Assembly: GCF_030013205.1 (NCBI RefSeq)
Contig: NZ_CP122648.1
Direction: 5' to 3' (one strand)
Source: Escherichia coli
GTDB taxonomy: Bacteria > Pseudomonadota > Gammaproteobacteria > Enterobacterales > Enterobacteriaceae
Length of the DNA: 64,000 nt
Under the pieces are notes generated by a model. The model was not told the DNA's origin, did not search any database, and was given only the letters and a program-made list of their open reading frames with translations. Each line of letters opens with the position of its first letter. Position 1 is the first letter of the stretch. A program made the position numbers and the translations under genes. Below are positions 43,293 to 60,693 of this stretch, in pieces.

Positions 43293-44536
43293 GCGAGTTG
43301 AGTTATCTGGAAAAATTGCTGGATGGGGTTGTGGTTGAGTGGAAAACCCTTGAGGATATTTCTATAAAGATATCATCTGGAGGAACCCCTAAAACTGGCG
43401 TATCAGAATTTTATGATGGCGACATTCCTTGGTTGCGAACTCAAGAAGTAAACTTTTGTGATATATGGGATACCGAGGTAAAAATAACTGAGTCTGGAGT
43501 TAAAAACTCTAGTGCAAAATGGATACCAAAGAATTGTGTCATTGTTGCTATGTATGGGGCAACTGTGGGGAAAATCGGCATAAACAAAATTCCAATGACA
43601 ACAAATCAAGCGTGCGCAAATATTCAACTTAATGAAGAAGTTGCTCATTATAGATATGTATTTCACTTCTTGTGTAGCCAATACACATATATCAAATCCC
43701 TTGGAACAGGGTCCCAGACAAACATAAATGCGCAGATTGTCAAAAATATTAAGATCCCCATCCCCTGCCCAGAAAACCCGGAAAAATCCCTTGCCATCCA
43801 GTCTGAAATCGTTCGGATTCTGGACAAATTTACTGCACTTACCGCTGAGCTTACCGCTGAGCTTAACATGCGTAAAAAACAGTACAACTACTATCGCGAC
43901 CAGTTGTTGAGTTTTAAAGAGGGTGAGGTTGAGTGGAAAAGTCTGGAAGATATTGCTTTATTTAGACGGGGTTCATTTCCACAGCCATATGGAAATAGTG
44001 AATGGTATGATGGAGAAGGTTGCATGCCTTTTGTTCAGGTAGCTGATGTGGCTGATTCAGGATTTACATTACACACAAAAACCAAACAACAGATTTCTAA
44101 GATTGCACAAAGCAAGAGCGTTTTTGTTGAGGCTGGAACAATTGTTGTGACACTGCAAGGTACTATTGGTCGAGTAGCAATAACACAGTACGATTGTTAT
44201 GTGGATAGAACTCTTGCAATATTTACTAACTTTAAAGTAAAAATAAACAAAAAATACTTTGCTTATCAACTAAAAGCTAAATTCGATTCAGAGAAAGAAT
44301 TTGCAAGAGGAAGTACTTTGAAGACAATTACAAAAGAAGAGTTTTCTAAGTTCCAATTACCTCTTCCCTCAATAAACGAACAAAATCGTATAGTATCACT
44401 ATTGGATAAGTTCGATACACTGGCTCATTCAATAAAACAAGGTCTCCCGCGTGAAATCGAGTTGCGCCAGAAACAATACGAATACTACCGTGATTTACTG
44501 TTCAGTTTCCCGAAACCTGAAACTGCCAGTAATTAA
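43289..44536 (+). CDS. hsdS: Type I restriction-modification specificity subunit HsdS (two target-recognition domains)
   Basis: 415 aa; ATGA overlap with hsdM; conserved central and C-terminal repeats ([14 protein letters not shown] / [15 protein letters not shown]); TAEL-TAEL spacer. Confidence 0.88.
43841..43864 (+). repeat. Tandem 12-bp repeat ACCGCTGAGCTT x2 encoding TAEL-TAEL in the hsdS central spacer
   Basis: Read directly from sequence; same repeat class whose copy number sets spacer length in EcoR124I/EcoR124II. Confidence 0.85.
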
Positions 44537-44657: not shown

Positions 44658-47600
44658 ATGACTCATCAGACACACACCATTGCTGAATCCAATAACTTTA
44701 TCGTTCTTGATAAGTACATCAAAGCTGAGCCAACAGGCGACAGCTACCAGAGCGAATCGGACCTGGAACGTGAACTGATTCAGGACCTGCAAAATCAGGG
44801 TTATGAATTTATTTCCGTAAAATCACAGTCGGCAATGCTATCCAATGTTCGGGAACAGCTTCAGAGCCTCAATGGTGTGATGTTTAATGACAGCGAGTGG
44901 CGGCGCTTCACGGAGCAGTATCTGGACAACCCCAGCGATGGTATTCTGGATAAAACCCGTAAAATCCATATCGACTATATCTGCGACTTTATTTTTGACG
45001 ACGGGCGACTTGAGAACATCTATTTGATAGATAAAAAGAATCTCATGCGCAATAAGGTGCAGATTATCCAGCAGTTTGAACAGACGGGTTCTCATGCTAA
45101 CCGTTATGACGTCACGATCCTGGTTAATGGTTTACCGCTGGTGCAAATCGAACTAAAAAAACGCGGGGTGGCGATTCGTGAGGCTTTCAACCAGATACAT
45201 CGTTACAGTAAAGAGAGTTTTAACAGCGAAAATTCCCTGTTTAAGTATCTGCAACTGTTTGTCATTTCTAACGGCACCGATACCCGTTATTTTGCCAACA
45301 CGACAAAGCGCGATAAAAACAGTTTTGACTTCACCATGAATTGGGCGAAATCAGACAACACGCTGATTAAAGACCTCAAAGACTTTACCGCTACCTTTTT
45401 CCAGAAACATACTCTGCTGAATGTTCTGGTGAACTACAGCGTTTTTGACAGTAGTCAGACGCTACTGGTGATGCGACCGTACCAGATTGCCGCCACCGAG
45501 CGCATTCTGTGGAAAATTAAGAGTTCCTTTACAGCGAAGAACTGGTCAAAACCGGAAAGCGGTGGGTATATCTGGCACACTACCGGTTCTGGTAAAACCC
45601 TCACCAGCTTTAAAGCCGCGCGTCTGGCAACAGAGCTGGACTTTATTGATAAAGTCTTCTTTGTGGTCGACAGGAAAGACCTCGATTACCAGACCATGAA
45701 GGAATATCAGCGTTTTTCGCCAGACAGCGTCAACGGCTCGGAAAATACCGCAGGCCTTAAACGAAATCTGGATAAGGACGATAACAAAATTATCGTCACT
45801 ACTATTCAGAAACTCAATAACCTGATGAAAGCAGAAAGCGACCTGCCTGTATATAATCAGCAAGTGGTGTTTATATTTGATGAATGCCACCGCAGCCAGT
45901 TTGGAGAAGCGCAGAAAAACCTGAAGAAGAAATTCAAACGCTATTATCAGTTTGGTTTTACCGGCACCCCTATTTTCCCGGAAAACGCCTTAGGCTCAGA
46001 AACAACCGCCAGCGTATTTGGTCGTGAATTGCATTCGTATGTAATTACCGATGCGATTCGTGACGAAAAAGTGCTCAAATTCAAAGTGGACTACAACGAT
46101 GTGCGGCCACAGTTTAAGTCTTTAGAGACAGAAACTGACGAGAAAAAACTAAGTGCGGCTGAAAATCAGCAGGCGTTTCTTCATCCCATGCGTATTCAGG
46201 AAATCACGCAATATATTCTGAATAATTTCCGCCAGAAAACTCACCGTACCTTCCCTGGCTCAAAAGGTTTTAATGCTATGTTGGCAGTGAGCAGCGTGGA
46301 TGCCGCGAAAGCCTATTATGCGACGTTTAAACGGTTACAAGAAGAAGCCGCTAATAAATCGGCTACCTATAAACCGCTGCGTATTGCGACAATCTTCTCC
46401 TTTGCCGCCAATGAAGAACAAAATGCCATTGGTGAAATTTCCGATGAAACTTTTGATACCAGCGCAATGGACAGCAGTGCTAAAGAGTTTCTGGACGCTG
46501 CAATTCGTGAATATAACAGCCATTTTAAAACTAACTTTAGCACCGACAGTAACGGTTTTCAGAACTACTATCGTGATTTAGCCCAGCGGGTTAAAAATCA
46601 GGATATCGATCTGCTAATTGTCGTGGGGATGTTTTTAACCGGCTTCGATGCTCCAACATTGAACACGCTATTCGTCGATAAAAACTTGCGTTTTCACGGC
46701 CTGATGCAGGCATTTTCCCGCACCAACCGTATTTATGATGCAACTAAAACCTTCGGTAATATCGTCACTTTCCGGGATCTGGAACGCTCAACTATTGATG
46801 CCATAACGCTGTTTGGTGATAAAAACACCAAAAATGTGGTGTTAGAAAAGAGTTATGCTGAGTATATGGAAGGCTTTACTGATGCTGCTACTGGTGAAGC
46901 TAAACGCGGCTTCATGACAGTAGTTTCAGAACTGGAACAACGGTTCCCTGACCCTGCCAGTATTGAAAGTGAAAAAGAGAAGAAAGACTTCGTTAAACTG
47001 TTTGGCGAATACCTGCGTGCCGAGAACATCCTGCAAAACTATGATGAATTTGCCACGCTAAAAGCCCTGCAACAAATCGATCTTAGCGATCCTGTTGCGG
47101 TAGAAAAATTCAAAGCAGAACATTATGTGGATGATGAAAAGTTCGCTGAATTGCAAACAATTCGTCTCCCTGCTGATCGCAAGATTCAGGATTATCGTTC
47201 TGCCTATAACGATATTCGCGACTGGCAGCGCCGTGAGAAAGAAGCTGAGAAAAAAGAGAAATCAACCACTGACTGGGATGACGTAGTTTTTGAGGTCGAT
47301 TTGCTGAAGTCTCAGGAAATAAACCTGGATTATATCCTTGGACTGATTTTCGAACACAACAGACAAAATAAAGGCAAGGGCGAAATGATCGAAGAGGTCA
47401 AACGCTTAATTCGTTCAAGCCTGGGGAACCGTGCTAAAGAGGGCCTGGTGGTCGATTTTATTCAGCAAACGAACCTGGATGATTTACCGGACAAAGCCAG
47501 CATCATTGACGCATTCTTTACGTTTGCTCAACGCGAACAGCAACGTGAAGCAGAAGCCTTGATCAAAGAAGAAAATCTCAATGAAGAGGCGGCGAAACGC

Positions 47601-47774
47601 TATATTCGCACATCTTTAAAACGCGAATACGCCACCGAAAATGGCACGGAATTAAACGAGACACTGCCCAGACTCAGTCCTTTAAATCCGCAATATAAAA
47701 CGAAAAAACAGACTGTTTTTCAAAAAATTAGCGCATTTATTGAAAAATTTAAGGGGGTGGGTGGAAAGATTTAG
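44658..47774 (+). CDS. hsdR: Type I restriction enzyme endonuclease/translocase subunit HsdR
   Basis: 1,038 aa; Walker A TGSGKT and DEAD-box variant FDECHRSQ; good ribosome-binding site; follows hsdMS. Confidence 0.9.
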
Positions 47775-48970
<1,196 letters not shown>

Positions 48971-49163
48971 CTAAGATAATTGGTTTTTAGCGAGTGACGG
49001 GCTAGGTTGTGTCAGTCTGTCTCATGTCGATATTACGGGGATGATGCAAACCTGAATGCTGCGATATTGGCGTGTCAGGGGAGGCATCTTACGGTATCAT
49101 TTACCGCAATTTTTAAGATGCAATGCCCTGCATCGCAGGCTTTTCTTCAGACCAGGATGATTC

Positions 49164-50216
49164 ATGAACGACAAAATCAGTCAGGACACGATCAACAAAG
49201 CCCTGTGGGCCGCGTGTGATACGTTCCGTGGCACCATCAGTGCTGATACCTATAAAGACTTTATCCTTACCATGCTGTTCCTTAAGTACATTTCGGATGT
49301 CTGGCAGGATCATTACGATGAATATAAAAAACAGTATGGTGATGCACCAGAACTCATTGAAGCCATGATGGCGAATGAACGTTTCGTATTGCCGAAAAGC
49401 GCCAGTTTCTATGCGCTGTATGAACGTCGTCATGAACCGGGCAATGGTGAGCGCATCGACCAGGCTCTGCATGCGATTGAAGAAGCTAATGGCACCAAAC
49501 TGAAAGACGCCGGGAAAAGCGTGTTCCAGGATATTTCGTTTAACACCGATCGCCTAGGTGAAGAAAAACAGAAGAACACCATCCTGCGTCAGCTGCTGGA
49601 AGACTTTGCCGGTCAAGATCTTAACCTGAAGCCGAGCCGTGTCGGTACGCTGGACGTTATCGGTAATGCCTACGAATATCTGATCAAAAACTTTGCTGCC
49701 AGCGGTGGGCAGAAAGCCGGGGAATTCTATACCCCACCAGAAGTTTCGGACCTGATTGCAGAACTGCTCGATCCGCAACCGGGTGATACCATCTGCGATC
49801 CAGCCTGTGGTTCCGGTTCATTATTGATGAAGTGTGGGCGTAAAATTGTCTCCGGGCATGATAGTCGTAACTATGCATTGTTCGGTCAGGAAGCGATCGG
49901 TTCTGCGTGGTCGCTGGCGAAAATGAATATGTTCCTGCACGGGGAAGACAACCATAAAATCGAGTGGGGCGATACCATTCGTAACCCGAAGCTGCTCGAT
50001 AAAAATGGCGACCTGATGCTGTTTGATATCGTGACCGCTAACCCACCGTTCAGCCTCGATAAGTGGGGCCATGACGAGGCCGAGAACGATAAGTTTGGCC
50101 GTTTTCGTCGCGGTGTACCGCCGAAGACTAAAGGAGGTATGGGATGCCTGCGCCAATATGGAGCGCTATATCCAGTACGGCTTTACCCCGCAAGAGCGCC
50201 ACCGTCTGTTTGGTGA
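49164..50216 (+). pseudogene. hsdM: Second type I restriction-modification methyltransferase hsdM, 3'-truncated (homology ends near 50,130; 3' tail of ORF is out-of-context)
   Basis: HsdM N-domain, DPACGSGSLL and NPPFS motifs present, but ORF ends ...[13 protein letters not shown] then unrelated tail; no hsdS follows. Confidence 0.7.
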
Positions 50217-51471
50217 GAGCGACTGGGGTCAGTTTGTGCCCCGTGATTTTGCCCATCTGCTTGATCTGCTAGGATCCCCAAACACGGCCGACGCTGCCGA
50301 TAAAAGCCGTGCAGCTGCCGGTAGCCAAGGGCGCACCTTGTTGGCCATTTTGCAGGATGACAAGCTTGATGGTGAGCAGACGGTGGAGGAGGAGAGCGCA
50401 GGCTCCGAGCGCTTTAACAGCGTCATCAACTTCTCCAACTTCTTGCTCCATGTGCTGCGACTCGTGAGCCGCGACCCGGGTGATACGGAGGGGGTGCCGC
50501 TTGATGATAAACAACTGGTCGATCAGTTTGAGCTGCGAGTGATAAGGCAACCGGATCCAGTAGCGGCAGTTCAGCGTTTTATCTATGGCCTGTTAAAGAG
50601 CAAGTATCTGTTTGATCAGTTCATCATCAAGCGCGAGTTTGCCGATGGCAAGGATAGTTGGAGTTTGAAGCGGCTGCACAGGTATTCGGAAAAGAGCGTC
50701 AGTTACATCAATACCTTTGACAAGGATGAAAATGAGAATGGTTTCTCTGGTGTTAACCGGCGGGTCCTGATGTTGCTGTCGGCGTTTCATGTGTCGACCC
50801 CGACCCTGGTTTACAAACATTGGCTGAATGGTGCACTGAGATATCTGTTCGACAATTGTCACCCTGATCAACCGGTGGATGCCGGGGCTTATCTGTCCTA
50901 TCTGGAGAGTCAGGCTCGCCGCTTTGTCTTCCAGCGCTTTTTGGCGCCTGGTGAAGGGGCTTCCTATTACCAGATGCTCTACCTTGATAACGCCCTGTTG
51001 CCCGCCATCAATGTGGATGAGAGTTGGCACAAGGTGATTACATCCAAACTTCGCTTCGGTCATATCGAGAACAACTTTGTCTTCAACTTCCTCGACTATC
51101 TGCTGTGGGTACGAGATCGGAATAGCGACAAAGTTGCTGGCTCCTTTGAGTTCACTTTCCGCAGCTCGGTGGAGCACTTCTCACCCCAGCATCCGATGGA
51201 TGGCTATAAACCGGTTGAGCAGAGTGCACTCCATTCGTTTGGCAACCTTTGCCTTATCAGCCACAGCAAGAACTCGCGCTTGAGTAACTTCCAGCCGCAA
51301 CAGAAGCAGGAGCACTTTGAAGCAAGCCTTGCCAATAACCAGACTGATAGTCTTAAATTGCTTGCTATGATTCGGCTGATGAAAGATAAAGGTCGTTGGC
51401 TGGAAGATGAGATAGCTGTGCATCAACAAGATATGTTGCAGGTCTTACTATCCAATCAAATTCAGCAATAA
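50158..51471 (+). pseudogene. GmrSD-like type IV restriction enzyme, C-terminal DUF1524 (His-Me finger) portion; 5' DUF262 part missing
   Basis: C-terminal ...[15 protein letters not shown]...[16 protein letters not shown] resembles the DUF1524 motif; no DGQQR DUF262 motif; upstream in-frame sequence is hsdM DNA read in another frame. Could alternatively be expressed from ATG 50158. Confidence 0.5.
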
Positions 51472-51657
51472 CGGATTGAATCTGTTTATGAAATTTGGCT
51501 GCTATCAACTAATGGGCGTTAAGTTGATTGTATGATCTGATTGATAAAGAAGGGGAGACTAAAAATCTCCTCTTCTTTGCAGCAGTTTACTGCGGTCTTT
51601 TTGTGATGCATCAGCATAAAACGTTTTACTTGTGGACCCTAAGAAATGGAGAACATT

Positions 51658-54600
51658 ATGTCGACTGTAGATACCTCTATAGCAGAGGAACTCAATCAAG
51701 GAGGCTCAGATTTTATTCTGACTTCCCTCGAGGCTATGCGTAAGAAGTTATTGGACCTTACGTCTCGAAATCGACTTTTGAATTTCCCTATCACTCAAAA
51801 AGGGTCTTCACTACGTATTGTTGATGAATTACCAGAACAGCTTTATGAAACCCTTTGCTCGGAAATCCCGATGGAATTTGCTCCTGTGCCCGATCCAACT
51901 AGAGCGCAGCTGTTAGAGCATGGCTATCTCAAAGTTGGGCCAGATGGTAAAGATATACAGTTAAGAGCTCATCCTAGCGCTAAGGATTGGGCGCACGTCT
52001 TAGGAATCCGTACAGATTTTGATTTACCAGATAGCCATAAAACGGTTGTTTCTGATTCAGATAGAGAGTTGCTGGAAAAAGCCCATCAGTTTATCTTGCA
52101 ATATGCCCAAGGCCAGAATGGAAAATTAACAGGGATTCGTTCTGAATACGTTAATCAAGGTATAGCTTTGTCAGCGTTGAAGGAGGCGTGCTGCTTAGCA
52201 GGCTATGAAGGGCTTGAGGATTTTGAACGACAGGCAAAGGCTGGGAATGAGATTAGTATATCTTCTTCCAATCCCTCTCATGACGATAATCGGATACAGG
52301 CTCTGCTTTATCCAAATGAACTGGAAGCTTGTTTGCGCGCCATCTATGGTAAGGCTCAAACTGCTTTGGAGGAGAGTGGCGCCAACATCTTGTATTTGGC
52401 GTTAGGGTTCCTTGAGTGGTATGAAAGCGATTCCTCTGAAAAGGCACGTTATGCACCGTTATTTACAATTCCGGTGAGATGTGAACGAGGAAAATTAGAT
52501 CCGAAGGATGGTCTTTACAAGTTTCAACTTTATTACACGGGTGAAGATATTTTGCCCAATCTCTCTTTGAAGGAAAAACTTCAGGCTGACTTTGGCCTCG
52601 CTCTTCCTTTGTTCAATGAAGAGGAAACTCCAGAGTCTTATTTTGCTTCGGTGAAGAAGGTTGTAGAGCAGCACAAACCTAAATGGTCTGTGAAACGTTA
52701 TGGTGCACTTAGCTTGCTCAATTTTGGCAAGATGATGATGTATCTTGACCTCGATCCTGCCCGCTGGCCTTGTGACAAGCGCAATATATTGTCTCATGAA
52801 GTAATTCGTCGCTTTTTCACCAGTCAGAGCTGTGGTCAAGAGAATTCCGGCTTACCTGGTGGCTTCGGTCAGCATGAGTACTGCATCGATAGTTACCCTG
52901 ATATTCATGACAAGGTTCCACTAATCGATGATGCGGATAGCTCGCAGCACAGTGCGTTGATCGATGCTATCCGTGGTCAAAACTTAGTCATTGAGGGCCC
53001 TCCTGGTAGTGGCAAATCACAAACGATCACCAACTTGATTGCAGCAGCTCTGCTCAACGGTAAGAAAGTCCTGTTTGTGGCAGAGAAGATGGCTGCACTG
53101 GAGGTCGTCAAACGTCGCTTGGATCGTGCGGGGCTAGGTCAATTTTGCTTAGAGTTGCACAGTCATAAAACTCATAAGCGCAAGGTGCTGGATGATATTA
53201 ATGCTCGCTTGGTGAGTCAGGCGACCATGCCTACTATGGAAGAGATTGATGCTCAGATTTTGCGTTATGAAGATCTTAAGCAGCAGCTCAATGAATATGC
53301 CGCATTGATCAATAACCAATGGGCGCAAACAGGCAAAACGATCCATCAGATTTTGAGTGGTGCAACCCGTTATCGTCACAAATTAGATATTGATGCAACA
53401 GCACTTCATATCGAAAACCTTTCCGGGAAGCAGTTGGATAAAGTGACCCAATTACGGCTGCGTGACCAAATAGTAGAGTTTAGCCGCATCTACAAAGAGG
53501 TTCGTGAGCAGGTGGGGGCTAATGCAGAAATATATGAGCACCCTTGGAGCGGTGTGAATAACACACAAATTCAATTGTTTGACAGCGCTCGTATAGTCGA
53601 TTTGCTACAAACTTGGCAGACATCAATTATCGACTTTCAACATAGCTATCAAGAATATGTAGATAAGTGGGCGTTAGAAGGCGAAAGCCTTAATACGCTT
53701 CAATATATTGAGCAATTGGTAGAAGATCAGTCGAATCTTCCAGTGTTGTGTGGTTCAGAGCATTTCCCAGCACTTAGTGAGCTAGATTCACCCGATGCCA
53801 TTGCACGGGTGCGTCACTATTTAGATAGGTTCGAGTTGCTACAAGGTCATTATGTGGCCTTGAGCCAGGTTATCGAGCCTCAAAAGCTACGACTTTTAGA
53901 ACAAGGACAATCGTGTGACTTTCCTCGTGAAGAGCTGGAAAAATATGGTGCAGCAGAGGATTTCACTTTACGTGATTTGGTCAGGTGGCTTGAATCCATC
54001 CAATCAATTCATGATGAGTTATCATCTATTTATGCGCAATTAAACGATTTCAAAAATGCTTTGCCAGATGGTATTGCTTCGTATATCGATGATTCGCAAG
54101 CTGGATTGCTATTCTGCTCTGAGTTGTTGTCGATTCTGGGTGCTTTACCGACTGAGCTTATTAGAGTTCGAGATCCTCTTTTTGATGATGATGATATCGA
54201 TGCAGTATTGCGCGACTTAATGTGTCAAATCGAAACATTGCGTCCTTTAAGAGATGGTCTATCTACTTTGTATCAATTGGACCAGTTGCCTTCCCAAGAG
54301 ATGCTCGCGCATGCCGTTGCTGTTATCCAGCAAGGGGGATTATTTGCATGGTTTAAGAGTGATTGGCGTAGTGCCAAGGCACTGCTCATGGCGCAATCTC
54401 GTAAGCCCGACACTAAGTTTGCTGAGTTAAAACGCTGCTCAGCTGATTTGCTCAAGTATTCGGAGCTGTTACAACGGTTTGAACAAAGTGACTTTGGTAA
54501 TCAACTTGGTAATGCATTCCGAGGGTTGGACACCGACTGTGAACAACTCATGTTATTGCGTGATTGGTACAAGAAGGTCCGAGCTTGTTACGGGATAGGT

Positions 54601-57393
54601 TTTGGAAAGCGAGTTGCGATAGGCTCTGGATTATTTAACCTAGATGGTGAGATTATCAAAGGTGTGCATTTAATCGAGAAATCGCAGATTAGCTCAAGAT
54701 TAATGACTTTGGTTAAACGGGTCGAGCACGAGGCTAAGTTATTACCGCGTATTTCTAGCTTGTTGGAAGAACATGCATCTTGGTTAGGTGAGCAAGGTGT
54801 ATTGATGCAATCTTACCGACAGGTGCGGAATACTCTCATTGCCTTGCAGGGATGGTTTATCAATCCAGATATATCATTAGAGCAGATGACTCATTCCTCC
54901 GAGATTTTGCAAAACATAAACGATCTTCAGATATCCCTTGAAAATGACTCGTTACAGTTAGGGGCGTTTTTACAATTAACCCCATTGGCTTGCGGTGCGT
55001 ATAAAAATAATCAACTGACGTTAGACACTATTAACGACACGCTGAATTTTGCCGAGCAACTGGTTGATAAGATAAATTGCGTATCCTTGGCTACCCAGAT
55101 CAGACATTTGGCTAGTGGTAGTGATTACGATTTACTATGTCGTGATGGTGGGGAAATAGTTTCGAAATGGAATGAACAGATTAAAAATGCTGAGTTATAT
55201 GCGCTAGAAACAAAGTTAGAGCGGAGTCAGTGGCTCAAGTCGACTGATGGTTCTCTTAATACATTAATCGAGCGCAACGAAAGAGCAATACAGCAACCCC
55301 GTTGGTTGAACGGGTGGGTTAACTTTATTCGTTGTTACGAGCAGATGGATGAAAACGGATTGCAGCGAATCTGGAGTGCTGTACTTGCGGGCTCGCTCCC
55401 GATTGAAAAAGTTGAATTGGGTTTAGCATTAGCAATTCATGACCAGCTGGCGCGGGAGGTTATTCACATCCACCCTGAATTGATGAGAGTTTCCGGCTCA
55501 CAGCGCAATGCTTTGCAGAAGTCATTTAAAGATTACGACAAAAAACTGATTGAATTACAACGTCAGCGGATTGCAGCAAAAATTGCTTGCCGAAATATAC
55601 CAGAAGGGAATTCTGGTGGTAAGAAAAGCGAATATACAGAACTAGCTTTGATCAAAAATGAGTTGGGTAAAAAAACCAGACATATTCCAATTAGACAATT
55701 GGTTAACCGTGCATGTAATGCGCTGGTTGCAATTAAACCTTGTTTCATGATGGGGCCAATGTCAGCAGCTCATTACCTAGAACCTGGACGAATGGAATTT
55801 GATCTGGTGGTGATGGACGAAGCGTCTCAGGTGAAGCCAGAGGATGCATTGGGTGTCATCGCGAGGGGCAAGCAACTAGTGGTCGTTGGTGACCCGAAAC
55901 AGCTACCACCAACCAGTTTCTTTGATCGAAGTGCCGACGGAGAAGATGACGATGATGCCGCGGCTTTAAGTGATACTGACAGCATTTTGGATGCTGCTTT
56001 GCCACTGTTTCCTATGAGACGTTTGCGTTGGCACTATCGTTCACGACATGAAAAGTTGATTGCATACTCTAACCGCCATTTTTATAACAGTGATTTGGTG
56101 ATATTCCCTTCCCCAAATGCTGAGTCTCCAGAGTATGGGATTAAATTTACCTATGTGTCAAAAGGTCGGTTCTCCAATCAACACAATATTGAAGAAGCCC
56201 AAGCAGTTGCTGAGGCCGTACTTCATCATGCGCAACACCGGCCGGGTGAGTCACTCGGGGTAGTGGCCATGAGTTCCAAGCAACGCGATCAAATTGAGCG
56301 CGCTATCGATGAATTGCGCCGAAATCGCCCTGAATTTAACGATGCAATCGATGGCTTATATGCCATGGAAGAGCCACTTTTTGTGAAAAACCTTGAGAAC
56401 GTTCAAGGGGATGAGCGTGATGTAATCTTTATTTCCTTTACCTATGGACCTTCTGAGCATGGTGGAAAGGTTTATCAACGCTTTGGACCTATCAATTCCG
56501 ATGTTGGCTGGCGTCGCTTGAATGTGCTTTTCACTCGATCAAAAAAACGGATGCATGTGTTTAGTTCAATGCGTTCTGAAGATGTATTGACGAGTGAAAC
56601 CAGTAAACTTGGTGTTATTTCGTTGAAAGGTTTTTTACAGTTTGCCGAAAGTGGCAAACTAGATTCCCTCACAACGCATACCGGCAGGGCTCCAGATAGT
56701 GACTTTGAGGTTGCTGTAATGGAAGCACTCAATCACGCTGGGTTTGAGTGTGAACCTCAGGTAGGGGTTGCAGGATTCTTTATTGATCTAGCTGTGAAAG
56801 ATCCAGGTTGTCCTGGCCGTTACTTAATGGGCATAGAGTGTGATGGTGCGGCTTATCACTCAGCTAAATCTGCTCGTGATCGTGACCGTTTGCGTCAAGA
56901 GGTTCTGGAGCGTTTGGGTTGGAGAATTAGCCGCATTTGGTCCACTGATTGGTTCAGTAATCCTGATGAGGTTCTATCTCCGATTATCCGTAAACTCCAT
57001 GAGCTTAAAACATTGGCTCCAGACGTTGTTGTACCTTCCTATGAATATGTAGAAACGATTGAGTCAAGCGCTGAAGTGGCGTCTGACTCAATTGATTCTC
57101 TTATGCCCAATTTGGGGCTTAAGGAGCAACTTAAGTATTTTGCCACACATGTCATTGAGGTTGAGCTTCCTAATGTTGATGCTGATCGTCGTTTGTTGCG
57201 GCCCGCAATGCTTGAGGCTTTGCTGGAACATCAGCCTTTATCACGTTCCGAGTTTGTTGAACGAATACCTCATTATCTGCGGCAAGCAACAGATGTATAC
57301 GAAGCGCAACGCTTTCTTGACCGAGTCTTGGCATTAATTGATGGCGCAGAGGCTGAAGCGAATGATGCAGCGTTTGAGTCTGAATTGGCATAA
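51658..57393 (+). CDS. Giant DUF4011-type SF1 (Upf1-like) helicase with C-terminal Vsr/DUF559-like endonuclease domain (Hhe-like architecture); candidate defence protein
   Basis: DUF4011-like signatures (LLDLTSRNRLLNF, ILYLALGFLEW), Walker A GPPGSGKS (52996-53019), motif II VVMDEASQ (55807-55830), motifs V/VI QGDERDVIFIS...RRLNVLFTRSKKRM, then GFFIDLAVKD...IECDGAAYHS...RDRDRLRQEVLERLGWRISRIW Vsr-like fold; ATG 51658 has GGAG 6 nt upstream (alternative ATG 51646). Confidence 0.85.
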   Translation: MSTVDTSIAEELNQGGSDFILTSLEAMRKKLLDLTSRNRLLNFPITQKGSSLRIVDELPEQLYETLCSEIPMEFAPVPDPTRAQLLEHGYLKVGPDGKDIQLRAHPSAKDWAHVLGIRTDFDLPDSHKTVVSDSDRELLEKAHQFILQYAQGQNGKLTGIRSEYVNQGIALSALKEACCLAGYEGLEDFERQAKAGNEISISSSNPSHDDNRIQALLYPNELEACLRAIYGKAQTALEESGANILYLALGFLEWYESDSSEKARYAPLFTIPVRCERGKLDPKDGLYKFQLYYTGEDILPNLSLKEKLQADFGLALPLFNEEETPESYFASVKKVVEQHKPKWSVKRYGALSLLNFGKMMMYLDLDPARWPCDKRNILSHEVIRRFFTSQSCGQENSGLPGGFGQHEYCIDSYPDIHDKVPLIDDADSSQHSALIDAIRGQNLVIEGPPGSGKSQTITNLIAAALLNGKKVLFVAEKMAALEVVKRRLDRAGLGQFCLELHSHKTHKRKVLDDINARLVSQATMPTMEEIDAQILRYEDLKQQLNEYAALINNQWAQTGKTIHQILSGATRYRHKLDIDATALHIENLSGKQLDKVTQLRLRDQIVEFSRIYKEVREQVGANAEIYEHPWSGVNNTQIQLFDSARIVDLLQTWQTSIIDFQHSYQEYVDKWALEGESLNTLQYIEQLVEDQSNLPVLCGSEHFPALSELDSPDAIARVRHYLDRFELLQGHYVALSQVIEPQKLRLLEQGQSCDFPREELEKYGAAEDFTLRDLVRWLESIQSIHDELSSIYAQLNDFKNALPDGIASYIDDSQAGLLFCSELLSILGALPTELIRVRDPLFDDDDIDAVLRDLMCQIETLRPLRDGLSTLYQLDQLPSQEMLAHAVAVIQQGGLFAWFKSDWRSAKALLMAQSRKPDTKFAELKRCSADLLKYSELLQRFEQSDFGNQLGNAFRGLDTDCEQLMLLRDWYKKVRACYGIGFGKRVAIGSGLFNLDGEIIKGVHLIEKSQISSRLMTLVKRVEHEAKLLPRISSLLEEHASWLGEQGVLMQSYRQVRNTLIALQGWFINPDISLEQMTHSSEILQNINDLQISLENDSLQLGAFLQLTPLACGAYKNNQLTLDTINDTLNFAEQLVDKINCVSLATQIRHLASGSDYDLLCRDGGEIVSKWNEQIKNAELYALETKLERSQWLKSTDGSLNTLIERNERAIQQPRWLNGWVNFIRCYEQMDENGLQRIWSAVLAGSLPIEKVELGLALAIHDQLAREVIHIHPELMRVSGSQRNALQKSFKDYDKKLIELQRQRIAAKIACRNIPEGNSGGKKSEYTELALIKNELGKKTRHIPIRQLVNRACNALVAIKPCFMMGPMSAAHYLEPGRMEFDLVVMDEASQVKPEDALGVIARGKQLVVVGDPKQLPPTSFFDRSADGEDDDDAAALSDTDSILDAALPLFPMRRLRWHYRSRHEKLIAYSNRHFYNSDLVIFPSPNAESPEYGIKFTYVSKGRFSNQHNIEEAQAVAEAVLHHAQHRPGESLGVVAMSSKQRDQIERAIDELRRNRPEFNDAIDGLYAMEEPLFVKNLENVQGDERDVIFISFTYGPSEHGGKVYQRFGPINSDVGWRRLNVLFTRSKKRMHVFSSMRSEDVLTSETSKLGVISLKGFLQFAESGKLDSLTTHTGRAPDSDFEVAVMEALNHAGFECEPQVGVAGFFIDLAVKDPGCPGRYLMGIECDGAAYHSAKSARDRDRLRQEVLERLGWRISRIWSTDWFSNPDEVLSPIIRKLHELKTLAPDVVVPSYEYVETIESSAEVASDSIDSLMPNLGLKEQLKYFATHVIEVELPNVDADRRLLRPAMLEALLEHQPLSRSEFVERIPHYLRQATDVYEAQRFLDRVLALIDGAEAEANDAAFESELA

Positions 57394-57586: not shown

Positions 57587-57613
57587 CCCCACGCCCGTAG
57601 ACAAATTCTGTCC

Positions 57614-58061
57614 TCACGACGAGGCCTGTTCGAAGGCCTCCGGACTGACGCCGCCGAGGTGACTGTGGCGCCGGGCCCGGTTGTAGAACACTTCAATGTA
57701 ATCGAAGATATCCGCCCGGGCTAGATCCCGGGTTTTGTATATTCTCTTCCTGATGCGCTCTTTTTTCAGTGAACTGAAGAACGATTCGGCCACCGCATTA
57801 TCCCAGCAGTTGCCACGCCGGCTCATGCTCGGGACCAGGTTATTAGCCCGGCAGAAGTGCTGCCAGTCGTCACTGCCGTACTGGCTTCCCTGGTCTGAGT
57901 GCACGATGACCTCGCCGTCGGGTTTACGTCGCCAGACCGCCATCATCAGTGCATCCAGCGCCAGTTCGCGTGAGAGAGTGGGCTTCATCGACCAGCCCAC
58001 CACGTTACGGGCGAAGAGATCGATAACCACCGCCAGATACAGCCAGCCCTGCCAGGTGCGG
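57614..58061 (-). pseudogene. IS3-family transposase OrfB, C-terminal exon (downstream of intron)
   Basis: ...[26 protein letters not shown]...DDE integrase core...NRARRHSHLGGVSPEAFE. Confidence 0.7.
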
Positions 58062-60332
58062 AGTAGAGTAAGAGGCAGGGCGTAGTCGGACTATTTCCCT
58101 GCCTCTCCTCCCCGAACCGGACGTGCACCTTTCAGCGCATCCGGCTCTCCATTTAAATGCTGGCGAACGCCATTGCCACTTCTGTAAAGCGCGATGTATA
58201 CGTGTTTCTGGTCTCCGTCCTCAGATAGGGATTACCTTCGGGTAGCCGCCAGCGGAACAGCTTCTTGCCTTGCCCCACCAACCGGTACAGTATTTCGCCG
58301 CTGAGCTTGCCGTGATTGGTTTTACCAAATAAAACCCACGTTTTGCTCTGACCCGGTTTCGGTGATTTACACCACCACCTCATCAGGGAAGCGATACCTG
58401 TACGGTATTTGTGGGCCAGCCAGTGAGCCAGCTTCCAGAACACGACACGGTCGATATAACTGAAGACTTTGGCCTTAAAATCAACGAACTGATAGAACAT
58501 GGCCCAGCCTTTCAGTTTTCGGTTGAGTTGTTCAGCCATATCGACTTTGCTTTCACTGTAGTTGCCTGATAACAGTGCTGTCAGCGATGCGGCGAAGTTT
58601 CTGGCTTTCTCCTGCGGGATCGTTGAGACCACTCGCATCTCGCCATAACGACTGCGTTTGCGAATGATCCTGTGCCCCAGAAAGATAAAGCCGTCATTAA
58701 CATGGGTGATTTTAGTCTTATCCATGTTCAGCCTGAGTTTCAGACTGCCTTTGAGCACACCCCGACACTCCTCCCTGATGGCTTCCGCCTGTGCTTTGGT
58801 GCCTTTGACGATGAGGACAAAATCATCGGCATAGCGGCAGTACGCCACCGCGGGTTTCCACTGCCAGTTTTCTCTGACCGCCGTACTTCGGCCCCGTTGG
58901 ATACTGTTATTCCAGTACCACCGATCTTTTCTGGCTTTCCCGCTCAGGTAGCGCTCATGCAGGTATTGATCGAACTCATTCAGCATGATGTTCGATAATA
59001 GCGGCGATATAACACCGCCCTGTGGCACACCTTCACTGGCCGCCCGAAAGAGACCGACATCGATATGTCCCGCCTTGATGGTTTTCCACAGCAGAGTCAT
59101 GAAACGTGCGTCACTGATCCTGCGGCGTACAGCCTTCATCAGCAGTCGATGATGTACGGTGTCGAAGTAACTGGACAGGTCGCCTTCAATCACCCAGCGT
59201 CCCCGGGTTTCACCACAGTCTGTGAGCTGTAATTTCACCGTGCGGATCGCGTGGTGGACACTGCGCTCAGGCCGGAAGCCATATGAGAGCGTATGAAAAT
59301 CACTCTCCCATATCGGCTCCATCGCCATCAGCATGGCCCGCTGAACAATACGATCCCGCAACGCGGGGATACCCAGTGGTCGCAGTTTGCCGTTGCTTTT
59401 AGGGATGTAAACCCGTCTGGCGGGCAAGGGCTGGTAGTGGCCTGAGAGTAATTCATCCCTGAGGATTTGCAGCTCAACAGCCAGTCTGGCCTGTAGCATT
59501 GTTTTGTTCACGCCATCAACGCCGGGGGTATGGGCCCCCTTTGATGAAAGCGTGATCCGCGCCGCTTCAGCCAGCCATTCTGGTTGTGTTATCAGACGCA
59601 GCAGCCGTTGAATCCGTAGGGACGGATCGGTGGCTGCCCATGTGGCAAGCTTGCGTTGCATTTCGCTGATTATCAAAGGTCTTCACCTCGTTAGGTCAGT
59701 TAATTCACGTCGTAAACACATTCAAACTGCTTCCCTTCGCCATGTAATGGGCTTTCCCCATCGCGGACTACTACGGAAGCTCCGCCAGCCAGCGCGTCAT
59801 CGGAGCCATGCCCCCTTAACATCCGTCGCTGACCTTCCCCGGTTTACCTGCCTGGACTCAGGCATACTGAGGAGGCTGCCCGTCGCACTCTTTATCCTTG
59901 CTTGCCGCAAGTTGGCAGAAGTCAGCAACGCAAGCGTGATAGACGCTGCTGCCCCGGTGTTTCGCATACATGTCAAAACACCTTCGACCGGCAGTGCTTA
60001 CGTATCACTGCCAGTTCCTCCTGCACGGCCTGTCAGATCACGTAGGCCGTGGTGACGTTTTCAACCCACAGAGGCGGATTAACGGGTTCATGTTCTTCAG
60101 CCTTTCAGTACTTAACCTTGAGGATCATCTCGGCTTAGTGATCTCGCCTCAATCCCCGTTGTCAGCGGGTTACATCACCTTGCGGGCATGCCGCAGGTCA
60201 CTGCCGCTCAGGTTCTCCACCGTCACACCCGGTGGGATTGTTGGGTTTCTCATCGTGAGTTACCGGTTCAATATTCCAGACAGATTCGCGGTTCATTTAA
60301 GCATCCATGCCCGCCCTGAACTCCGGGCACAC
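58062..60332 (-). mobile_element. Bacterial group II intron (about 2.27 kb) inserted in IS3-family orfB
   Basis: 5' end GUGUG at the exon junction (minus strand), 3' end ...CUAC; domain V-like hairpin GAGCCGGATGCGCTGAAAGGTGCACGTCCGGTTC near 58100-58135; reverse-transcriptase ORF in domain IV. Confidence 0.75.
58153..59676 (-). CDS. Group II intron-encoded reverse transcriptase/maturase
   Basis: 507 aa; reverse-transcriptase motifs including YADD (YCRYADDFVLIV); maturase X-like C-terminus. Confidence 0.85.
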   Translation of the reverse strand: MIISEMQRKLATWAATDPSLRIQRLLRLITQPEWLAEAARITLSSKGAHTPGVDGVNKTMLQARLAVELQILRDELLSGHYQPLPARRVYIPKSNGKLRPLGIPALRDRIVQRAMLMAMEPIWESDFHTLSYGFRPERSVHHAIRTVKLQLTDCGETRGRWVIEGDLSSYFDTVHHRLLMKAVRRRISDARFMTLLWKTIKAGHIDVGLFRAASEGVPQGGVISPLLSNIMLNEFDQYLHERYLSGKARKDRWYWNNSIQRGRSTAVRENWQWKPAVAYCRYADDFVLIVKGTKAQAEAIREECRGVLKGSLKLRLNMDKTKITHVNDGFIFLGHRIIRKRSRYGEMRVVSTIPQEKARNFAASLTALLSGNYSESKVDMAEQLNRKLKGWAMFYQFVDFKAKVFSYIDRVVFWKLAHWLAHKYRTGIASLMRWWCKSPKPGQSKTWVLFGKTNHGKLSGEILYRLVGQGKKLFRWRLPEGNPYLRTETRNTYTSRFTEVAMAFASI

Positions 60333-60693
60333 TATAGGTCACATCACCGCACCACACCTGATTTGGCTCGGTCACGGCGAACTGCCGTTCAAGGTAGTTA
60401 GGGATAGCAACGTGCTCATGACCGCCACGCTTATACCGGTGAGTCGGCTGCTGGCAACTGACCAGTCCCAGCTCTTTCATGAGTCTGCCAGCAAGCCAGC
60501 GCCCCATCTGGTAGCCTCTCCGGGTTGCCATTGTGGCGATGCTTCTTGCTCCGGCAGAGCCGTGGCTGATGCCATGCAGTTCAAGTACCTGGCTGCGTAA
60601 TACAGCCCGTCTGCCGTCTGGCTTTTCAGGACGGTTTTTCCAGTATTTGTAGCTGCTGCGATGGACCCCGAACACATGGCAGAGAGTGGCCAC
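60333..60693 (-). pseudogene. IS3-family transposase OrfB, N-terminal exon (upstream of intron)
   Basis: ...[14 protein letters not shown] then intron; IS911-like. Confidence 0.7.

What the first reader, a model, noticed from the sequence alone, without database searches (positions are those of the whole stretch)
50100..51471. Deletion junction fusing truncated hsdM to the 3' portion of a GmrSD-like (DUF1524) type IV restriction gene
The hsdM reading frame and the DUF1524-like frame overlap around 50,071-50,216. A strong AAGGAGGT lies at 50,127-50,134, while the first in-frame ATG of the nuclease fragment is at 50,158. The fragment has the His-Me finger-like C-terminus but no DUF262 N-domain. 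Either a stand-alone nuclease is made from an internal start, or it is a dead remnant.
Basis: partly seen in the sequence, partly recalled or inferred. Interest (0 to 1): 0.5.

Follow-up and report, generated by a model that had tools for sequence, protein, structure and literature searches.

The report
Deletion scar joining two dead defence genes
This is a real but ordinary deletion scar in a pig-associated E. coli lineage: 3.4 kb was lost from a phage-defence island, leaving half of a methylase gene joined out of frame to the nuclease-only tail of a two-gene TgvAB-type restriction system, and both halves are most likely dead.

Summary
hsdM' (49164-50136, 324 of 507 codons) abuts the last 444 codons (50137-51471) of a 680-aa GmrSD_N+GmrSD_C gene. 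The joint has a single shared G at 50136 and a +1 frame offset, so no fusion protein is encoded.

The four genomes that share the upstream IS5 joint but lack the deletion keep 3,421 bp here: the hsdM 3' end, an hsdS stub, an IS3 stub, a 483-aa DUF262-only gene and the DUF262 domain of the 680-aa gene. Against strain PD7, which keeps the complete type I system, the gap is 9,210 bp.

The lost pair is a catalogued homologue of Vibrio cholerae TgvAB. In that system both proteins and both DUF262 NTPase motifs are needed for defence.

The junction occurs in 15 of 5,426 complete E. coli genomes, all from swine. 254 genomes carry the intact pair. RefSeq already marks both halves as pseudogenes.

AAGGAGGT lies at 50131-50138, not 50127-50134. 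It straddles the joint and sits 19 nt before ATG 50158. It is correctly spaced only for an accidental 42-codon ORF in the third frame.

A stand-alone nuclease is not excluded, but nothing supports it. Low interest.

The parts
47775..48970 (-). ISKpn26/IS5 copy (1196 bp). It forms the left boundary of the module that carries hsdM'. It is flanked by TTAG on the left and CTAA on the right, which is not a direct target-site duplication.
   Evidence: Terminal inverted repeats read. Transposase ORF at 47922-48902. RefSeq annotation. Homology to PD7 starts exactly at 48971.
48971..49163 (+). Retained upstream region of hsdM#2, with one sigma-70-like site (-35 GTGTCA at 49072, -10 TATCAT ending at 49100). 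This is the likely source of any transcript that reads into the fragment.
   Evidence: consensus scan only; the number of sites is no higher than in shuffled sequence. for the homology boundary.
49164..50136 (+). hsdM' : codons 1-324 of a 507-codon type I methylase gene. It has HsdM_N and the first half of the N6_Mtase domain, including DPACGSG and NPPF. The C-terminal half is missing.
   Evidence: Pfam. TIGR00497 scores 129 bits against a cutoff of 242.75. 99.5% DNA identity to the PD7 hsdM. RefSeq pseudogene 'missing C-terminus'.
50136..50136 (+). Deletion junction. A single G is shared by both parental sequences (1-nt microhomology). 3,421 bp is missing relative to Ecol_244 and 9,210 bp relative to PD7.
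   Evidence: Three-way base alignments. BLAST coordinates.
50131..50138 (+). AAGGAGGT, which straddles the joint. AAGGAG is hsdM coding sequence and GT comes from the nuclease gene. It lies 0 nt from ATG 50139 (hsdM frame), 5 nt from ATG 50144 (third frame) and 19 nt from ATG 50158 (nuclease frame).
50137..50216 (+). Out-of-frame tail of the hsdM' ORF: 26 alien codons read from nuclease-gene DNA, then TGA at 50214-50216.
50144..50272 (+). Accidental 42-codon ORF in the third frame ([11 protein letters not shown]...), counting its stop codon. It is the only start codon correctly spaced from the AAGGAGGT. No family match.
50137..51471 (+). tgvB-like 3' fragment: codons 237-680 plus the stop of a 680-aa GmrSD_N+GmrSD_C gene, made up of the helical linker and the DUF1524 His-Me nuclease domain. 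No start codon of its own. The first in-frame ATG is at 50158 (Met244). An in-frame GTG lies at 50236, 20 nt after the hsdM' stop.
   Evidence: RefSeq pseudogene 'missing N-terminus'. 100% identical over its length to an intact 680-aa cluster representative.
51091..51441 (+). GmrSD_C (DUF1524) domain. The catalytic His583 codon CAC is at 51175-51177. Asn606 and Asn615 are invariant in 44 homologues.
   Evidence: Pfam. Motif positions. Invariant columns.
51646..57393 (+). Intact hhe (DUF4011 helicase-nuclease anti-phage gene), the surviving downstream neighbour of the deleted pair.
   Evidence: PADLOC Hhe 4300 bits over the full length. RefSeq annotation.

Best explanation
This is a non-functional scar left by one illegitimate deletion in a defence island of a porcine E. 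coli lineage.

The immediate ancestor looked like strains Ecol_244 and NT1N25. Its gene order was: type I R-M #1, then IS5, then hsdM#2 (already frameshifted), an hsdS stub, an IS3 stub, tgvA-like (DUF262+DUF7834, 483 aa), tgvB-like (DUF262+DUF1524, 680 aa) and hhe.

A 3,421-bp deletion with only 1 nt of microhomology joined hsdM#2 nucleotide 973 to tgvB-like nucleotide 708. The deletion removed tgvA-like entirely and the DUF262 NTPase/sensor domain of tgvB-like. The two frames differ by +1.

The locus therefore encodes a 350-aa truncated methylase with a 26-residue nonsense tail, followed by a nuclease-domain reading frame that has no promoter, ribosome-binding site or start codon of its own.

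Shown here: the junction, its parental sequences, the domain content and the population distribution. Inferred: that neither piece makes a functional product, and that the TgvAB-type type IV restriction activity is lost while R-M #1 and Hhe remain.
For: - Junction mapped to the base against two kinds of intact relatives.
- Four genomes share the upstream IS5 joint but not the deletion. The two read in full (Ecol_244 and NT1N25) keep the full pair and carry the same 5-nt frameshift in hsdM#2, downstream of the breakpoint. hsdM#2 was therefore probably dead already.
- The frames are offset by +1.
- Pfam finds only GmrSD_C in the fragment. The intact protein has GmrSD_N at 12-215 with DGQQR at 79.
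- The break falls inside predicted helix 224-242 of the intact protein.
- 111 of 120 closest homologues are 650-700 aa with both domains. The one short homologue traced to its contigs is a contig-end call.
- The best anti-SD pairing within 3-11 nt of ATG 50158 is -4.0 kcal/mol. The strong SD lies 19 nt away and instead serves a third-frame ATG.
- Table S5 of PMC11411939 lists the same E. coli and Klebsiella proteins as TgvAB homologues. The intact protein aligns colinearly with V. cholerae TgvB at E 8e-21.
- In TgvAB neither gene protects alone, and DGQQR mutations in either protein abolish defence.
- 15 of 5,426 genomes carry the junction, all from swine, and 14 of the 15 are identical to the window across the 2.8-kb query (the fifth, ETEC1748, scores 5 bits lower). 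254 carry the intact pair.
- RefSeq/PGAP flags both halves as pseudogenes.
Against: - The fragment's reading frame is still fully open to its native stop, and its protein sequence is identical to an intact allele, so there is no secondary decay. This is expected for a recent event and says nothing either way about selection.
- The hsdM#2 upstream region is retained, so the fragment is probably transcribed.
- In-frame starts exist at ATG 50158 and at GTG 50236, which lies 20 nt after the hsdM' stop. Low-level translation cannot be excluded from sequence alone.
- No expression data were available.
Confidence: 0.9

Rival explanations
1. A stand-alone, sensor-less DUF1524 nuclease (residues 244-680 or 270-680) is translated from the hsdM' transcript. 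Translation would start either at ATG 50158 or by termination-reinitiation at GTG 50236 after the hsdM' stop. The product would have some activity: defence, toxicity or a dominant-negative effect.
For: - The ORF is intact to its native stop and the His-Me residues H583, N606 and N615 are present.
- An upstream promoter-like region is retained.
- GTG 50236 lies 20 nt downstream of the hsdM' TGA, with a weak GGGG Shine-Dalgarno-like sequence at a 5-nt gap (-5.4 kcal/mol, comparable to the hsdR#1 start).
Against: - ATG 50158 has no usable Shine-Dalgarno sequence. The 8-mer is 19 nt away and favours an out-of-frame ATG.
- The break truncates predicted helix 224-242, so folding is doubtful.
- No natural homologue with this architecture was confirmed in the one case traced: that one is a contig-end call and the others start at scattered positions.
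- In TgvAB the partner protein and the DUF262 NTPase motif of TgvB are both essential.
- The lineage is clonal, so there is no evidence of selection.
Confidence: 0.06
2. An HsdM(1-324)-nuclease fusion protein is made by +1 ribosomal frameshifting in the 50071-50213 overlap. This would give a methylase-N-domain/His-Me nuclease chimera.
For: - Both frames are open across 50071-50216.
- A strong internal Shine-Dalgarno-like 8-mer lies in the overlap. From general knowledge, such motifs stimulate frameshifting in prfB and dnaX.
Against: - The codons after the 8-mer (ATG GGA TGC) are not slippery.
- There is no stop codon or rare codon at the prfB-like spacing.
- The only CUU-U site (CTT TAC) has no stimulator 3 nt upstream (sequence read).
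- The overlap exists only because of a recent accidental deletion seen in 15 near-identical genomes.
Confidence: 0.01
3. Assembly artefact or chimeric contig rather than a biological junction.
For: None beyond the abruptness of the joint (1-nt microhomology).
Against: An identical junction is present in 15 complete genomes from several independent projects and countries. Both flanks are colinear with relatives over more than 5 kb on each side.
Confidence: 0.01

Closest known systems
TgvAB (VC1767/VC1766), the type I-embedded GmrSD-like two-protein type IV restriction system of Vibrio cholerae VPI-2 (Vizzarro et al. 2024, PMC11411939; Gomez & Waters 2024, bioRxiv 10.1101/2024.04.05.588314)
   Same: - The ancestral pair has the same architecture: an upstream DUF262-only protein, then an overlapping gene for a DUF262+DUF1524 protein, next to a type I R-M system.
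- The identical E. coli and Klebsiella proteins are listed as TgvA and TgvB homologues in the paper's Table S5.
- The 680-aa protein aligns colinearly with V. cholerae TgvB residues 12-399 (E 8e-21).
- The DGQQR and His-Me motifs are present in the intact protein.
   Different: - Only 24% identity to V. cholerae TgvB.
- In E. coli the pair lies beside, not inside, the hsd operon.
- In the window, tgvA and the DUF262 domain of tgvB are deleted, so the system as defined (both proteins, both NTPase motifs) is not present.
Single-chain GmrSD family type IV restriction enzymes and relatives (Eco94GmrSD, BrxU, SspE, DndI)
   Same: - Pfam GmrSD_N plus GmrSD_C in the intact homologue.
- PADLOC hits to HEC-06, Orf5, SspE and mREase_IV models.
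- Foldseek top hits are SspE (7DRR, 6JIV) and DndI (9JFL), with BrxU further down.
   Different: - The sequence match to solved structures is confined mainly to the DUF262 region.
- The window copy lacks the DUF262 domain altogether.
- The intact form works with a second DUF262 protein rather than alone (by analogy with TgvAB).
Split GmrS/GmrD of E. coli CT596, with DUF262 and DUF1524 on separate polypeptides (as summarised)
   Same: A DUF1524-only polypeptide would superficially resemble GmrD.
   Different: GmrD works with a separately encoded GmrS, and no DUF262 partner remains at this locus. The fragment arises from a recent out-of-frame deletion, not from a conserved split gene.
Type I R-M methylase subunit HsdM
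   Same: HsdM_N and the N-terminal half of N6_Mtase, with SAM-binding and NPPF motifs.
   Different: - It lacks the C-terminal 183 residues and scores below the TIGR00497 cutoff.
- The cognate hsdS and hsdR genes are absent.
- It is only 30% identical to the intact HsdM of the neighbouring system.

Membership tests
GmrSD family type IV restriction enzyme | N-terminal DUF262 (GmrSD_N, ParB-like NTPase) domain with the DGQQR motif | tested here: not met
   Pfam on the window ORF finds no GmrSD_N. In the intact homologue the domain is at residues 12-215 with DGQQR at 79. The window copy starts at residue 237.
GmrSD family type IV restriction enzyme | C-terminal DUF1524 (GmrSD_C) His-Me finger nuclease domain | tested here: met
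   PF07510 E 2.3e-11. H583, N606 and N615 are invariant in 44 homologues.
GmrSD family type IV restriction enzyme | Modification-dependent cleavage of hypermodified (glucosyl-hmC) DNA | not testable with these tools
   Needs phage plaque assays or in vitro nuclease assays.
TgvAB two-protein system | Adjacent upstream DUF262-only partner gene (tgvA) | tested here: not met
   Absent from the window. Present as a 483-aa GmrSD_N+DUF7834 gene overlapping the 680-aa gene in PD7, Ecol_244 and NT1N25. It lies inside the 3,421 bp that is missing.
TgvAB two-protein system | Sequence homology of the DUF262+DUF1524 protein to V. cholerae TgvB | tested here: met
   BLASTP of the intact homologue against TgvB residues 1-399 gives E 8e-21 and 24% identity, colinear. 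Identical proteins are listed as VC1766 and VC1767 homologues in Table S5 of PMC11411939. The window retains only the part from residue 237 onward.
TgvAB two-protein system | [quoted passage not shown] | not testable with these tools
   Reported for V. cholerae TgvAB. Not tested for the E. coli homologue.
Type I R-M HsdM | Complete HsdM_N plus N6_Mtase domains, scoring above the curated cutoff | tested here: not met
   N6_Mtase model positions 4-160 of 311 only. TIGR00497 scores 129.4 bits against a cutoff of 242.75.
Type I R-M HsdM | Cognate hsdS and hsdR in the same operon | tested here: not met
   Present in PD7. Absent downstream of hsdM' in the window. The neighbouring hsdMSR#1 belongs to a different family (30% identity).

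The most novel reading that the evidence does not exclude
The deletion accidentally created an expressed, sensor-less His-Me nuclease (TgvB residues ~244/270-680). It would be driven by the hsdM promoter and translated by reinitiation after the hsdM' stop. It would be tolerated or even useful in this porcine ETEC/O139:H1 lineage, for example as an unregulated nickase or as a modulator of the adjacent Hhe system.
Probability: 0.04. Interest if true: 0.45.

Novelty: already known. Interest (0 to 1): 0.12.

Why it matters
It matters little in itself. It is a clear, base-resolved example of how defence islands decay in steps. First the type I system lost hsdS and hsdR and acquired a frameshift in hsdM. 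Then one microhomology-poor deletion removed the TgvAB-type system, while a neighbouring type I system and Hhe survived.

In practice it is a caution for defence-system annotation: the fragment is labelled 'HNH endonuclease family protein' and could be counted as a gene. It also predicts that this swine-associated lineage has lost TgvAB-type restriction of hmC-modified T-even phages, if the E. coli homologue has the same specificity as the V. cholerae system.

Tried and rejected
- Is hsdM' a duplicate of the upstream hsdM (41736-43292)? No. They are only 30% identical as proteins and show no DNA match.
- Is there an IS end or other mobile-element trace at the joint? None. Both flanks match their parents up to the same G. 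The only repeats of 7 nt or more near the endpoints are two chance 7-mers.
- Do natural stand-alone DUF1524 homologues exist? Nine of the 120 best hits are shorter than 650 aa. They start at scattered positions. P0096 sits at the first 30 nt of all three of its contigs, so it is a contig-end call.
- Programmed frameshifting to make a fusion protein was rejected from the sequence: there is no slippery site at the right spacing.
- NCBIfam has no model matching either TgvA-like or TgvB-like protein. The PDB sequence search gives only weak DUF262 hits.
- Rfam scan of 47000-52500 gave only one sub-threshold chance hit (snoR35, 24 bits against a gathering score of 40).
- The 194-aa antisense ORF (50593-51177) and the 42-aa ORF have no PHROG hits.
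- The terminator-like hairpin at 50224-50243 lies in native coding sequence and was given no weight.
- Not done: the exhaustive representative-protein search and the metagenome and genome scans. The DNA-level comparison had already settled the question.

Full report
**What is in the window.** ORF listing and direct reading show the following, all on the + strand unless noted:
- an intact type I R-M operon: hsdM 41736-43292, hsdS 43289-44536, hsdR 44658-47774;
- an IS5-family element, with its transposase at 47922-48902 on the - strand;
- a 350-codon ORF at 49164-50216;
- a 466-codon ORF at 50071-51471 in the +1 frame;
- a 1,915-codon ORF at 51646-57393.

Pfam assigns HsdM_N plus the first half of N6_Mtase (model positions 4-160 of 311) to the 350-aa ORF. 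It assigns only GmrSD_C/DUF1524 (E 2.3e-11) to the 466-aa ORF. PADLOC identifies the large ORF as a full-length Hhe (4300 bits).

**Origin of the window.** The window is 100% identical over 48900-51700 to 14 complete E. coli genomes, and a fifteenth (ETEC1748) differs only marginally (bit score 5168 against 5173). All 15 are from swine, and they include O139:H1 and ETEC strains. Over 20.8 kb it differs from strain K_EC180 at 2 positions. RefSeq annotates 49164-50135 as an hsdM pseudogene 'missing C-terminus' and 50128-51471 as an 'HNH endonuclease family protein' pseudogene 'missing N-terminus'.

**The junction, to the base.**
- Strain PD7 carries an intact 507-aa hsdM and, 9.2 kb downstream in the same island, an intact 680-aa 'DUF262 domain-containing protein'.
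- Window homology to the PD7 hsdM ends at 50136, and homology to the 680-aa gene begins at 50136.
- The three-way alignment reads: hsdM ...ACTAAAGGAG|ATTACGC, nuclease gene ...GACCCGG|GTATGGG, window ...ACTAAAGGAGGTATGGG. The parents therefore share a single G.
- The hsdM frame and the nuclease frame differ by +1. The hsdM ORF runs on for 26 alien codons to the TGA at 50214-50216, and no in-frame fusion is encoded.
- The nuclease-gene part begins at codon 237 of 680.

**The true immediate ancestor.**
- A search across the hsdR#1-IS5-hsdM#2 joint found 19 genomes that span it: the 15 above plus EPSSH018, Ecol_244, NT1N25 and NT1W25.
- Ecol_244 and NT1N25 have this order: R-M #1, IS5, full-length but frameshifted hsdM#2, a 339-nt stub, a DDE-transposase stub, a 483-aa DUF262 gene, the 680-aa gene, hhe, an IS3 fragment and a group II intron.
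- The window is colinear with Ecol_244 on both sides (99.0% and 99.6% identity) and lacks exactly 3,421 bp, again with 1-nt microhomology.
- Both relatives share the same 5-nt deletion at hsdM#2 nucleotide 1147, which is downstream of the window's breakpoint at nucleotide 972/973.
- Type I system #2 had therefore most probably lost hsdS and hsdR and been frameshifted before this deletion. What the deletion actually destroyed was the DUF262 gene pair.

**What the pair was.**
- The 483-aa protein has GmrSD_N plus DUF7834. The 680-aa protein has GmrSD_N (12-215, DGQQR at 79) plus GmrSD_C (555-671), with His583, Asn606 and Asn615.
- The two genes overlap by 8 nt.
- This is the architecture of V. 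cholerae TgvAB. There TgvA (DUF262 only) and TgvB (DUF262+DUF1524) are both required. DGQQR substitutions in either protein, or His-Me substitutions in TgvB, abolish protection against T-even phages.
- Table S5 of that paper (PMC11411939) lists E. coli FORC31 and Klebsiella plasmid proteins with the same sequences as TgvA and TgvB homologues.
- The 680-aa protein aligns colinearly with the first 399 residues of V. cholerae TgvB (24% identity, E 8e-21).
- An AlphaFold2 model of the intact protein (mean pLDDT 73.9) has SspE and DndI as its best solved-structure matches, with BrxU weaker. PADLOC hits are HEC-06, Orf5, SspE and mREase_IV models.

**Is a stand-alone nuclease plausible?**
- Of the 120 closest homologues (58-100% identity), 111 are 650-700 aa with both Pfam domains.
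- The nine shorter ones begin at scattered positions. P0096, traced to its contigs, starts 16-30 nt from a contig end in all three cases.
- The breakpoint (residues 236/237) lies inside predicted helix 224-242.
It straddles the joint: the intact hsdM reads AAGGAGAT. It lies 19 nt upstream of ATG 50158.
- Within the usual 3-11-nt spacing, ATG 50158 has only a -4.0 kcal/mol anti-SD pairing. The 8-mer is ideally placed (5 nt between its last base and the ATG, -12.6 kcal/mol) for ATG 50144 in the third frame, which opens a meaningless 42-codon ORF.
- The most credible route to any product is reinitiation at the in-frame GTG 50236, 20 nt after the hsdM' stop, which has a weak GGGG motif. This is inference only.
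- The fragment's protein sequence is identical to an intact 680-aa cluster representative. Within the fragment's coding sequence it differs from PD7 at two nucleotides: one synonymous and one W418R. There has been no decay since the deletion, and there is no signal of selection.

**Population picture.** The pair occurs at 99% identity or more in 275 of 5,426 complete E. coli genomes. 254 of these hold at least 80% of it. The 15 junction genomes have no second copy.

**Conclusion.**
- The locus is an ordinary, recent, clonal deletion scar between two defence genes. It is already flagged as two pseudogenes in RefSeq, and it derives from a catalogued homologue of a characterised system (TgvAB).
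- I put 0.9 on the dead-remnant explanation, about 0.06 on a translated nuclease-only product, and about 0.01 each on a frameshift fusion and on an assembly artefact.
- No non-coding RNA or antisense gene was found here.

Noticed in passing
window 47771-48974: The ISKpn26/IS5 copy (47775-48970) is flanked by TTAG on the left, overlapping the hsdR#1 stop codon, and CTAA on the right. These are reverse complements, not a direct 4-bp target duplication. This suggests recombination between two IS5 copies joined type I R-M #1 to the hsdM#2 module. The same joint is present in 19 genomes.
   Followed up: partly
L008 19865-21383 and L009 19867-21385 (hsdM#2 in Ecol_244 and NT1N25): Both relatives share an identical 5-nt deletion at hsdM nucleotide 1147, and hsdS/hsdR are reduced to a 339-nt stub next to an IS3 fragment. 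Type I system #2 therefore decayed in steps before the window's deletion.
   Followed up: yes
window 50144-50272: The junction-completed AAGGAGGT is perfectly spaced for ATG 50144 in the third frame, which opens a 42-codon ORF with no family match. It is probably a meaningless by-product, but it would compete for ribosomes with any nuclease-frame start.
   Followed up: partly
window 43342-44439 (hsdS#1): hsdM#1 and hsdR#1 match Ecol_244 and NT1N25 at 96-99%, but most of hsdS#1 has no megablast match to either. RefSeq hsdS lengths also differ (1248, 1137 and 1365 nt). The target-recognition domains have been swapped, so the surviving type I system probably has a different specificity in each lineage.
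   Followed up: no
L003 (PD7), L008 (Ecol_244), L009 (NT1N25): The same tgvAB-like + hhe module sits in different chromosomal contexts: next to yecA/tyrP in PD7, in a CP4-like island with Ag43 and cbtA/cbeA near yagU in Ecol_244, and beside tRNA-Ile/mug in NT1N25. Klebsiella plasmid copies are listed in Table S5 of PMC11411939. The module moves between islands and replicons.
   Followed up: no
L005 30-5220 (Logan ERR6050433 contig): A 60%-identical TgvB-like gene lies directly upstream of, and overlaps, hsdR. It is followed by a YgjP/M48-like peptidase gene and hsdM on the opposite strand. This is a type I-embedded arrangement like V. cholerae VPI-2.
   Followed up: no
window 57600-60400: Downstream of hhe are IS3 fragments interrupted by a group II intron reverse transcriptase/maturase (ltrA, ORF 58153-59676 on the - strand), as annotated in K_EC180.
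   Followed up: no
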